33,830 nucleotides of DNA, from assembly GCA_046482545.1 (NCBI GenBank), contig JAWOEX010000040.1:1-33830 (forward strand), written 5' to 3'. A model generated the notes under the pieces. It saw only the letters and a program-made list of their open reading frames with translations, searched no databases and was not told the DNA's origin. The DNA comes from Candidatus Thorarchaeota archaeon (GTDB taxonomy: Archaea > Asgardarchaeota > Thorarchaeia > Thorarchaeales > Thorarchaeaceae). This document shows, in pieces, positions 3,301 through 3,519 of the stretch (positions are counted from its first letter, which is position 1; every line of letters starts with the position of its first letter). The translations under genes were made by a program, and so were the position numbers.

Positions 3301-3360
3301 ACCGAGAGATCACGACGGCCTTCGTGTGGCTGTCAATTAGGTTCTTTCTGGTGATTTCCA

Positions 3361-3519
3361 ATGATTTCAACAGTCAACTCCATGAATCTCGAATGCTCAA
3401 ATGTAATGCATCTGCTAGTCACAACACCAGCTCCACTTGATTATCTCAGCTATATTGTCTATACCAATCGTATTCTGGATGATAGACAAGGAGCTGAGAT
3501 ACTAACCTATGACTGGTGA
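3361..3519 (+). CDS. Putative Tyr-rich leader peptide (uORF), 52 aa
   Basis: GGTGA at 3350-3354, ATG at 3361. Translation: MISTVNSMNLECSNVMHLLVTTPAPLDYLSYIVYTNRILDDRQGAEILTYDW*. It overlaps the start of the first operon gene. Confidence 0.45.
   Translation: MISTVNSMNLECSNVMHLLVTTPAPLDYLSYIVYTNRILDDRQGAEILTYDW
3442..3501 (+). promoter_or_regulatory. RBS-sequestering stem-loop in the aro operon leader
   Basis: TATCTCAGCT (3442-3451) pairs with AGCTGAGATA (3492-3501), and TTGTCTAT (3455-3462) pairs with ATAGACAA (3482-3489). The stem covers the SD-like GGAGCTGA (3490-3497). Confidence 0.65.

What the first reader, a model, noticed from the sequence alone, without database searches (positions are those of the whole stretch)
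3350..3519. Candidate tyrosine-sensing leader-peptide translational attenuator in an archaeon
Seen: an RBS-preceded 52-codon uORF whose three clustered TAT Tyr codons (3442, 3451, 3460; DYLSYIVY) lie in the 5' arm of an 18-bp (10+8) hairpin. The 3' arm covers the SD-like GGAGCTGA (3490-3497) of the first operon gene. The uORF ends ...TYDW* across that gene's ATG. A second anti-SD, CAGCTCC (3428-3434), can also pair with GGAGCTG. The downstream operon makes chorismate and tyrosine (tyrA present, no pheA or trp genes). Inference: ribosome stalling on Tyr codons would open the hairpin and free the RBS. Ribosome-mediated attenuation is classic in bacteria but sparsely documented in archaea.
Basis: partly seen in the sequence, partly recalled or inferred. 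Interest (0 to 1): 0.82.

Follow-up and report, generated by a model that had tools for sequence, protein, structure and literature searches.

The report
Two-uORF tyrosine leader, Asgard aro operon
The flagged mini-gene and hairpin are real, but they are the second half of a longer conserved leader in front of an Asgard archaeon's tyrosine-making operon, and the likelier tyrosine sensor is an overlooked tyrosine-rich mini-gene upstream, a kind of ribosome-read control I found published only for bacteria.

Summary
The 52-codon uORF (3361-3519), its three TAT codons, the 10+8 bp hairpin (z -5.5) and the stop overlapping the first gene's ATG are all present.

In 22 orthologous loci from 7 genera this uORF is always there: GGTG Shine-Dalgarno (SD), ATG, and a stop at -2 to +17 of the main start. 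Its Tyr cluster and hairpin occur only in this genus, plus an analogous hairpin in one divergent locus.

The conserved Tyr signal lies upstream at 3207-3299. It is a leaderless 30-codon uORF1 that starts 24 nt after a BRE/TATA box. In relatives its last 12 codons are 33% Tyr, against 3.4% genome-wide. It sits in three covarying helices.

The two conformers are close in energy.

The genome has no prephenate dehydratase and no chorismate-binding enzymes, so the pathway makes only tyrosine.

The sign of the response is unresolved in silico.

The scan found the same element earlier in related genomes. I found no publication for archaea.

The parts
3168..3182 (+). BRE/TATA promoter of the leader (TATA box 3175-3182)
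   Evidence: Conserved in the orthologous loci. The TATA box ends 23-25 nt before the uORF1 start in 20 of 22 loci, with non-conserved sequence in between. The transcription start site (TSS) is inferred, not mapped.
3207..3299 (+). uORF1: leaderless 30-codon ORF (GTG 3207; internal ATG 3219; TAA 3297). Tyr codons at 3246, 3282, 3288
   Evidence: This frame is open in 22 of 22 loci, while each of the other two frames has 1-7 stops. Indels are multiples of 3 and third-position changes are synonymous. Tyr makes up 86 of 264 of the last 12 codons against 3.4% genome-wide. The copy in this window is the poorest, with 2 Tyr in the tail.
3207..3217 (+). Segment A: 5' strand of helix P1, including the uORF1 start codon
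   Evidence: Pairs with 3304-3313. Covariation shown.
3232..3280 (+). Helix P2 (3232-3238 with 3274-3280) enclosing hairpin P3 (3250-3256 with 3262-3268)
   Evidence: On alignments A5 and A6, 86% of cells pair against 31-43% when partners are slid. Covariation score is 0.32 and 0.29 against 0.17 and 0.15 for shuffles, 0 of 500 shuffles as high.
3300..3313 (+). Segment B: anti-SD-like stretch right after the uORF1 stop. It is the 3' strand of P1 (3304-3313) or the 5' strand of the sequestor stem (3300-3309)
   Evidence: It contains the same hexamer as the 3' end of the genome's 16S rRNA.
3314..3334 (+). Hairpin h2 (3314-3320 with 3328-3334)
   Evidence: Present in every locus with a different sequence each time.
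3342..3354 (+). Segment C: pyrimidine tract plus the SD of uORF2 (GGTGA 3350-3354)
   Evidence: Nearly invariant across loci. Pairs with B in the isolated spacer fold in 21 of 22 loci, mean z -3.0.
   Evidence: SD, ATG and an open frame up to the main start are present in 22 of 22 loci. The stop falls at -2 to +17 of the main start, and 12 loci have a 4-nt start/stop overlap (11 listed plus L041, where the start 12 nt downstream was read by eye).
3442..3501 (+). Genus-specific hairpin with TAT codons (3442, 3451, 3460) in the 5' arm and part of GGAG (3490-3493) in the 3' arm
   Evidence: z -5.5. Conserved in L005 and L006 with one compensatory pair. Absent in other genera except an analogous hairpin in L012.
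3509..12374 (+). Nine-gene operon: CM-aminotransferase, prephenate dehydrogenase, DHQ synthase, DAHP synthase, DHQase I, shikimate DH, shikimate kinase, EPSP synthase, chorismate synthase
   Evidence: Pfam assignments. Eight of the nine genes overlap or abut their neighbour.

Best explanation
The flagged region is the 3' half of a ~300-nt leader that starts at about 3207 and carries two upstream ORFs.

uORF1 (3207-3299) is leaderless and ends in a run of Tyr codons. It is the likely tyrosine gauge. A ribosome reading it decides which partner the segment just after its stop (B, 3300-3313) takes.
- B can pair with the 5' end of the RNA, which includes uORF1's own start codon (A:B, helix P1). That leaves the SD of uORF2 free.
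- B can pair instead with the pyrimidine tract and SD of uORF2 (B:C). That hides the SD.

Its stop overlaps the start of the chorismate mutase-aminotransferase gene, so its translation is passed on by termination-reinitiation. In this genus it also passes on by melting the 3442-3501 hairpin. The overlapping downstream genes follow.

Proposed order of events (inferred). When Tyr-tRNA is scarce, the pioneer ribosome stalls in the Tyr run. B emerges from the polymerase while A is free and C is not yet made. P1 forms first, the uORF2 SD stays open, and the operon is translated. When Tyr is plentiful, the ribosome runs onto the stop and covers B. After release, B zips onto the adjacent C.

Shown: the anatomy, the conservation, the covariation and the competing pairings. 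Inferred: the TSS, translation of both uORFs, and above all the sign of the response.
For: - 22 loci from 7 genera share the whole architecture.
- uORF1's frame is open in 22 of 22 loci while the other frames are closed, and TATA-to-start spacing is 23-25 nt in 20 of 22.
- Tyr is 33% of the last 12 codons against 3.4% genome-wide, and TAT:TAC is 81:5 against 55:45 genome-wide.
- P1, P2 and P3 covary.
- A covariance model of them hits once per genome and only beside this operon: 23 of 86 family genomes, and 0 of 125 sampled genomes elsewhere in the phylum.
- The isolated spacer folds into a stem that hides the uORF2 SD in 21 of 22 loci, mean z -3.0.
- Masking A pairs the SD in 22 of 22 loci, and the two conformers differ by -1.7 kcal/mol on average.
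- With a ribosome on the Tyr run and C not yet transcribed, B pairs with A, 8.5 expected pairs.
- The genome, 98.9% complete, has no PDT and no Chorismate_bind match, so tyrosine is the pathway's only amino-acid product.
- uORF2's stop overlaps the main start, an arrangement shown to couple translation in an archaeon (PMC6728339).
- A translational attenuator built on a leaderless short ORF is proven in mycobacteria (bioRxiv 10.1101/834739).
Against: - There are no expression data. The TSS and translation of both uORFs are inferred.
- At equilibrium, a ribosome parked on the Tyr run shifts B towards C (B-A 2.8 against B-C 6.7 expected pairs). That would hide the SD on starvation, the opposite of what a biosynthetic operon needs. 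The homeostatic direction therefore rests on a kinetic argument I could not simulate.
- A ribosome on the last Tyr codon barely reaches the sequestor stem.
- In this window uORF1 has only 2 Tyr in its tail (p about 0.06 on its own), and A:B is 10.5 kcal/mol more stable than B:C, so the switch may be weak here.
- B:C is not better than cross-genus pairings in 4 of 9 groups, this genus included.
- No other amino-acid leader was found in this genome.
Confidence: 0.6

Rival explanations
1. The three Tyr codons of uORF2 (3442, 3451, 3460) are the sensor. A ribosome stalled on them holds the 3442-3501 hairpin open and frees the first gene's SD.
For: The hairpin is strong. It is conserved in the genus with one compensatory change, and L005 has 5 Tyr codons there. 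Divergent locus L012 has its own 16-bp hairpin with Tyr codons in one arm and the SD in the other. Both lineages have the weakest uORF1 Tyr runs. The geometry matches the mycobacterial poly-Cys case, where the codons pair with the SD region.
Against: The cluster and hairpin are absent from the other 18 loci. Only half of GGAG is in the stem, and it lies 15 nt from the ATG. With a ribosome on Tyr 3451 or 3460, the second anti-SD pairs with GGAG completely. Three Tyr in 7 codons within a 52-codon ORF is only marginally unusual. Any ribosome passing through uORF2 opens the hairpin, stalled or not.
Confidence: 0.2
2. A pure translational relay that works the opposite way round. Ribosomes that finish uORF1 melt the sequestor stem and so admit ribosomes to uORF2 and then to the operon. 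Stalling on Tyr codons lowers expression, or the Tyr codons are a by-product of RNA-structure constraints.
For: A ribosome at the uORF1 stop covers B, whereas one on the Tyr run does not. Equilibrium folding with a stalled ribosome favours B:C. Start/stop overlaps run all along the operon.
Against: It is anti-homeostatic for a pathway whose only amino-acid product is Tyr. It gives no role to the covarying P1 helix, which buries uORF1's own start codon. Synonymous and in-frame variation around invariant Tyr codons, and Tyr-to-Phe replacements, point to selection on the codons themselves.
Confidence: 0.15
3. An RNA-only or protein-bound element: a ligand- or tRNA-sensing riboswitch (T-box-like), or an operator for a repressor. 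On this view the open frames are incidental.
For: The structure covaries. A conserved UGGU could in principle pair with a tRNA 3' end. The Tyr-Ser-Tyr codons form short DNA palindromes in some loci.
Against: No Rfam family matches, T-box included, even at E up to 10. Both frames are kept open in 22 of 22 loci with the other frames closed. UGGUGA is explained as an SD matching the 16S 3' end at correct spacing. The palindrome is lost where the Ser codon changes.
Confidence: 0.07

Closest known systems
Mycobacterial polycysteine leaderless short-ORF attenuators (Ms5788A class, 'Cys ribulon'; bioRxiv 10.1101/834739)
   Same: A leaderless short ORF at the 5' end of a biosynthetic operon, a run of codons for the pathway's own product near its end, and control at the level of SD accessibility rather than termination.
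   Different: It is bacterial. There the Cys codons pair directly with the SD region of the next gene. Here the Tyr run pairs with upstream uORF1 sequence, the anti-SD lies after the stop, a three-segment A/B/C competition is involved, and a second relay uORF stands between sensor and operon. Only the genus-specific uORF2 hairpin resembles the direct design.
Classical enterobacterial leader-peptide transcription attenuators (trpL, pheL, hisL; own knowledge, Yanofsky 1981)
   Same: A leader peptide rich in the end-product's codons, placed 1-3 codons before the stop, followed at once by a segment with two alternative partners. The decision is plausibly made during transcription.
   Different: There is no GC-rich hairpin followed directly by a U-run before the first gene (spacer folds). 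The shared segment competes between a partner upstream of the stall site and the SD of a second uORF. The start is leaderless, and the host is an archaeon.
Eukaryotic two-uORF control (GCN4, ATF4; own knowledge)
   Same: A short first uORF and a second uORF that overlaps the main ORF start out of frame, ahead of an amino-acid-related gene, here in an Asgard archaeon.
   Different: uORF2 here has its own SD. The overlaps are the 4-nt prokaryotic coupling type. The signal is a specific codon run, not ternary-complex level. No scanning is implied.

Membership tests
Leader-peptide (ribosome-mediated) attenuators in general | Short ORF upstream of a biosynthetic operon, enriched in codons for the operon's end product | tested here: met
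   In uORF1, 86 of 264 tail codons are Tyr across 22 loci against 3.4% genome-wide. The operon makes only Tyr. The copy in this window has just 2-3 Tyr.
Leader-peptide (ribosome-mediated) attenuators in general | Mutually exclusive RNA pairings whose choice depends on ribosome position | tested here: inconclusive
   A:B and B:C share the same B nucleotides and are close in energy. Dependence on ribosome position is modelled only, and equilibrium and kinetic readings give opposite signs.
Classical transcription attenuators (trpL type) | Intrinsic terminator (GC-rich hairpin immediately followed by a U-run) between leader peptide and first gene | tested here: not met
   The scan finds none between 3300 and 3509. 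The pyrimidine tract is interrupted, lies 7 nt after h2, and forms the 3' arm of the B:C stem.
Leaderless short-ORF translational attenuators (mycobacterial Cys type) | Short ORF begins at the transcription start | tested here: inconclusive
   TATA-to-start spacing of 23-25 nt in 20 of 22 loci fits a leaderless start. No TSS data exist.
Leaderless short-ORF translational attenuators (mycobacterial Cys type) | The regulatory codons themselves pair with the SD region of the regulated gene | tested here: not met
   For uORF1, the Tyr run pairs with uORF1's own 5' half (P2 and flanks), and the anti-SD lies after the stop. It is partly met by the genus-specific uORF2 hairpin.
Any amino-acid-sensing attenuator | Expression responds to supply of the amino acid or its charged tRNA | not testable with these tools
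   The lineage is uncultured and no expression data were available.
T-box riboswitch | Match to the T-box covariance model (Stem I specifier loop, T-box bulge) | tested here: not met
   No Rfam hit at the gathering threshold or at E up to 10 over 3000-3600.
Termination-reinitiation coupled gene pairs | Stop of the upstream ORF overlaps or abuts the start of the downstream ORF | tested here: met
   uORF2's stop lies at -2 to +17 of the main start in 22 of 22 loci, with a 4-nt overlap in 12: 11 listed plus L041 read by eye. The mechanism is shown in Haloferax (PMC6728339).

The most novel reading that the evidence does not exclude
The two-uORF leader works by regulated reinitiation rather than by SD masking alone. 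[quoted passage not shown] That would be an Asgard-archaeal counterpart, and a possible forerunner, of eukaryotic GCN4/ATF4-type uORF control.
Probability: 0.07. Interest if true: 0.95.

Novelty: new variant of a known kind. Interest (0 to 1): 0.75.

Why it matters
Ribosome-read leader peptides are a textbook bacterial device. In the paper library I searched I found none described for archaea.

A conserved, covarying Tyr leader in an Asgard family would show three things:
- the lineage closest to eukaryotes uses translation of upstream ORFs to gauge an amino acid;
- early ribosome loading on nascent leaderless RNA matters there;
- a relay of two uORFs can pass a signal down a nine-gene operon.

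It offers a compact, testable system of about 300 nt for archaeal transcription-translation coupling and uORF control. It also flags unannotated mini-genes that gene callers miss.

Tried and rejected
- **Second TATA box.** I first read the TA-rich stretch at 3281-3296 as a second TATA box. It is the Tyr-codon run of uORF1.
- **T-box or other known RNA.** No Rfam match.
- **C/D-box or tRNA-like RNA.** No support, and ARAGORN finds no tRNA.
- **Intrinsic terminator after h2.** Not found.
- **Second copy of the leader.** nhmmer and the covariance model find only this one in the genome.
- **Other amino-acid leaders in this genome.**
  - The his operon leader has no His-run uORF.
  - Two genome-wide scans for TATA-spaced short ORFs with residue runs gave nothing convincing.
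  - The one Tyr-ish hit precedes a zinc-ribbon/TPR protein.
  - An unfiltered scan was pure noise.
- **Leader outside the family.** Not found in 125 sampled genomes of the phylum. A fused CM-aminotransferase gene in another family directly follows chorismate synthase with no leader. G021's differently built aro cluster has no Tyr-rich uORF.
- **Naming relatives.** The search for related loci in genome contigs returned only distant bacterial aminotransferases.
- **Equilibrium SD-accessibility modelling.** It did not separate ribosome states well.

Full report
**What is at the coordinates**

- An ORF of 52 codons runs 3361-3519, preceded by GGTGA.
- In-frame TAT codons sit at 3442, 3451 and 3460.
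- The stretch 3442-3501 folds into a 10+8 bp hairpin. This is the minimum-energy fold of 3420-3520 (-34.5 kcal/mol, z -5.5, 0 of 200 shuffles as good).
- The ORF stops 8 nt inside the next gene.

That gene is a chorismate mutase-aminotransferase fusion. It is followed by prephenate dehydrogenase and seven shikimate-pathway genes, and eight of the nine genes overlap or abut their neighbour.

The genome is archaeal by SSU rRNA. It encodes a full-length actin at 439 bits that none of the four control archaea has.

**Comparison with relatives**

Searching the fusion protein in 86 genomes of the family gave 25 genomes with an ortholog. I could read the upstream region in 22 loci from 7 genera, at 39-69% protein identity.

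- It has a GGTG-type SD that matches the 3' end of this genome's 16S rRNA, followed by an ATG.
- Its frame stays open for 25-52 codons while the other frames are mostly closed.
- Its stop lies at -2 to +17 of the main start. This is a 4-nt start/stop overlap in 12 loci: 11 listed, plus L041, where I read the start 12 nt downstream by eye.

The peptide is not conserved. The Tyr cluster is confined to the three genomes of this genus. A stable hairpin over the main SD is seen only there and, independently built, in divergent locus L012.

**The overlooked upstream half**

The alignments showed much stronger conservation further upstream.

A BRE/TATA element at 3168-3182 is followed, 23-25 nt later in 20 of 22 loci, by an ATG or GTG that opens a 29-32 codon frame. 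Here this is GTG 3207 to TAA 3299. That spacing is what a leaderless archaeal mRNA would show. This is an inference, because no TSS data exist.

Evidence that the frame is read:
- It is open in 22 of 22 loci, and both other frames carry 1-7 stops.
- Indels are in threes.
- Gly, Ser and Tyr codons vary at third positions.
- Tyr is sometimes replaced by Phe.

Across the loci, 86 of the 264 last-12 codons are Tyr. The figure is 3.4% in long ORFs of this genome. The codons are almost all TAT (81:5, against 55:45 genome-wide). The copy in this window is the least Tyr-rich, with two Tyr in the tail and three overall.

**RNA structure**

uORF1 lies inside three nested helices.
- P1 joins its start region (3207-3217) to the 10 nt that begin 5 nt after its stop (3304-3313).
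- P2 pairs 3232-3238 with 3274-3280.
- P3 pairs 3250-3256 with 3262-3268.

| Alignment | Sequences | Cells paired | Paired when partners slid | Covariation score | Shuffled score | Shuffles as high |
|---|---|---|---|---|---|---|
| A5 | 14 | 86.6% | 31-41% | 0.32 | 0.17 | 0 of 500 |
| A6 (model-fitted, so it leans towards the structure) | 23 | 85.6% | 31-43% | 0.29 | 0.15 | 0 of 500 |

On A5, nine pairs change on both sides.

The covariance model hits once per genome, always next to this operon, in 23 of 86 family genomes. It hits none of 125 sampled genomes elsewhere in the phylum. nhmmer finds no second copy in this genome.

**The switch**

Folded alone, the spacer from the uORF1 stop to the uORF2 ATG forms one long hairpin in 21 of 22 loci (mean z -3.0). 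The 10-14 nt after the stop (B) pair with the conserved pyrimidine tract and SD of uORF2 (C). They enclose a hairpin h2 whose sequence differs in every genus.

B is therefore shared between P1 (A:B) and the sequestor (B:C).
- RNAduplex gives -10 to -18 kcal/mol for A:B and -9 to -17 for B:C, on the same B nucleotides.
- Cognate partners beat cross-genus partners for A:B in most loci. For B:C they do so in the g3, g3b, g6 and g7 groups, but not in this genus.
- With A masked, the SD is paired in 22 of 22 loci.
- The two conformers differ by -1.7 kcal/mol on average. In this window the gap is -10.5 in favour of A:B.

**Physiology**

The 98.9%-complete genome has no match to prephenate dehydratase or to the chorismate-binding family that includes anthranilate synthase. 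Both searches ring in all 14 control genomes. Tyrosine is therefore the pathway's only amino-acid product, which fits a Tyr-only leader.

Chorismate synthase is found in 25 of 86 family genomes, largely those with the leader.

**Mechanism and its weak point**

The anatomy says that a ribosome on uORF1 governs B, and B governs the SD of uORF2. uORF2's overlap with the main start is the arrangement shown to couple translation by termination-reinitiation in Haloferax (PMC6728339).

The direction of the response is not settled.

| State modelled | Expected B-A pairs | Expected B-C pairs |
|---|---|---|
| Free RNA, full length | 7.1 | 5.2 |
| Ribosome on the Tyr run, full length, at equilibrium | 2.8 | 6.7 |
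| Ribosome on the Tyr run, C not yet transcribed | 8.5 | none |

The equilibrium result would hide the SD on starvation. The truncated-transcript result shows that P1 would form first and could hold. I therefore favour a decision made during transcription: stalling lets P1 form and leaves the SD open. I rate that specific step at no more than one in three. The opposite-signed relay reading remains a live rival.

It is under selection in the genus: the arms are conserved, the loops vary, and there is one compensatory U-A to C-G change.

The proposed release of the SD does not follow from folding.
- Only half of GGAG is in the stem.
- GGAG lies 15 nt from the ATG.
- A ribosome on the second or third Tyr codon lets 3428-3434 pair with GGAG fully.

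Its simplest role is to make first-gene initiation depend on uORF2 translation.

The two lineages with such a hairpin (this genus and L012) also have the weakest uORF1 Tyr runs. A shifted or second Tyr checkpoint in uORF2 is therefore possible.

**Known relatives and novelty**

The nearest published system is the mycobacterial leaderless poly-Cys short ORF, which controls SD access of the next gene (bioRxiv 10.1101/834739).

This element differs from it in four ways: host domain, a post-stop anti-SD, the three-way A/B/C competition, and the relay uORF. It also lacks the terminator that defines trpL-type attenuators.

Five literature searches found no archaeal leader-peptide attenuator. Ribosome profiling in Haloferax reports uORFs but no amino-acid sensing.

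Earlier notes of this scan describe the same element in related genomes and reached similar conclusions. I read them after forming my own reading, and they are not independent evidence.

Noticed in passing
It ends 9 nt before the BRE/TATA of the leader, so the insertion sits directly against the promoter without disturbing the conserved block.
   Followed up: no
whole genome G000: No prephenate dehydratase and no chorismate-binding enzyme (TrpE, PabB or MenF type) in a 98.9%-complete genome. The full shikimate pathway seems to serve tyrosine only, which implies Phe and Trp auxotrophy.
   Followed up: partly
window 9482-10006: The shikimate kinase is of the bacterial SKI type. From my own knowledge, most archaea use a GHMP-type enzyme. 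The DAHP synthase carries a ferredoxin-like N-domain. Together with the patchy presence of the pathway (chorismate synthase in 25 of 86 family genomes), this hints that the operon was acquired.
   Followed up: no
L012:2868-2990 (- strand): In the most divergent locus, uORF2 contains an independent 16-bp hairpin with Tyr codons in both arms and the main SD in the 3' arm, while its uORF1 Tyr run is degenerate.
   Followed up: partly
window 3348-3355 and 3513-3520: The same octamer (the SD of uORF2 with flanks) recurs at codons 2-4 of the first gene. Both copies are complementary to 3425-3430, giving a possible further chain of alternative pairings. It is not conserved in the two sister genomes.
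   Followed up: partly
uORF1 tails of the 22 loci: Tyr codons in the leader are 94% TAT although the genome uses TAT and TAC at 55:45. This may reflect RNA-structure constraints or a preference for the wobble-read codon.
   Followed up: no
L101 about 3930-3970 (- strand; G000:C34 about 14385-14414): The 474-nt region ahead of the his operon has no His-run uORF. It carries an 11-nt direct repeat about 30 nt after a TATA-like box, possibly a regulator site.
   Followed up: no
L001:258-1487 and L002 (G000:C33): The 16S gene on contig C2 matches the whole 1478-position archaeal model in only 1230 nt. A second, partial SSU copy lies at the end of contig C33. This may be a deletion, an assembly artefact or a second rRNA operon.
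   Followed up: no
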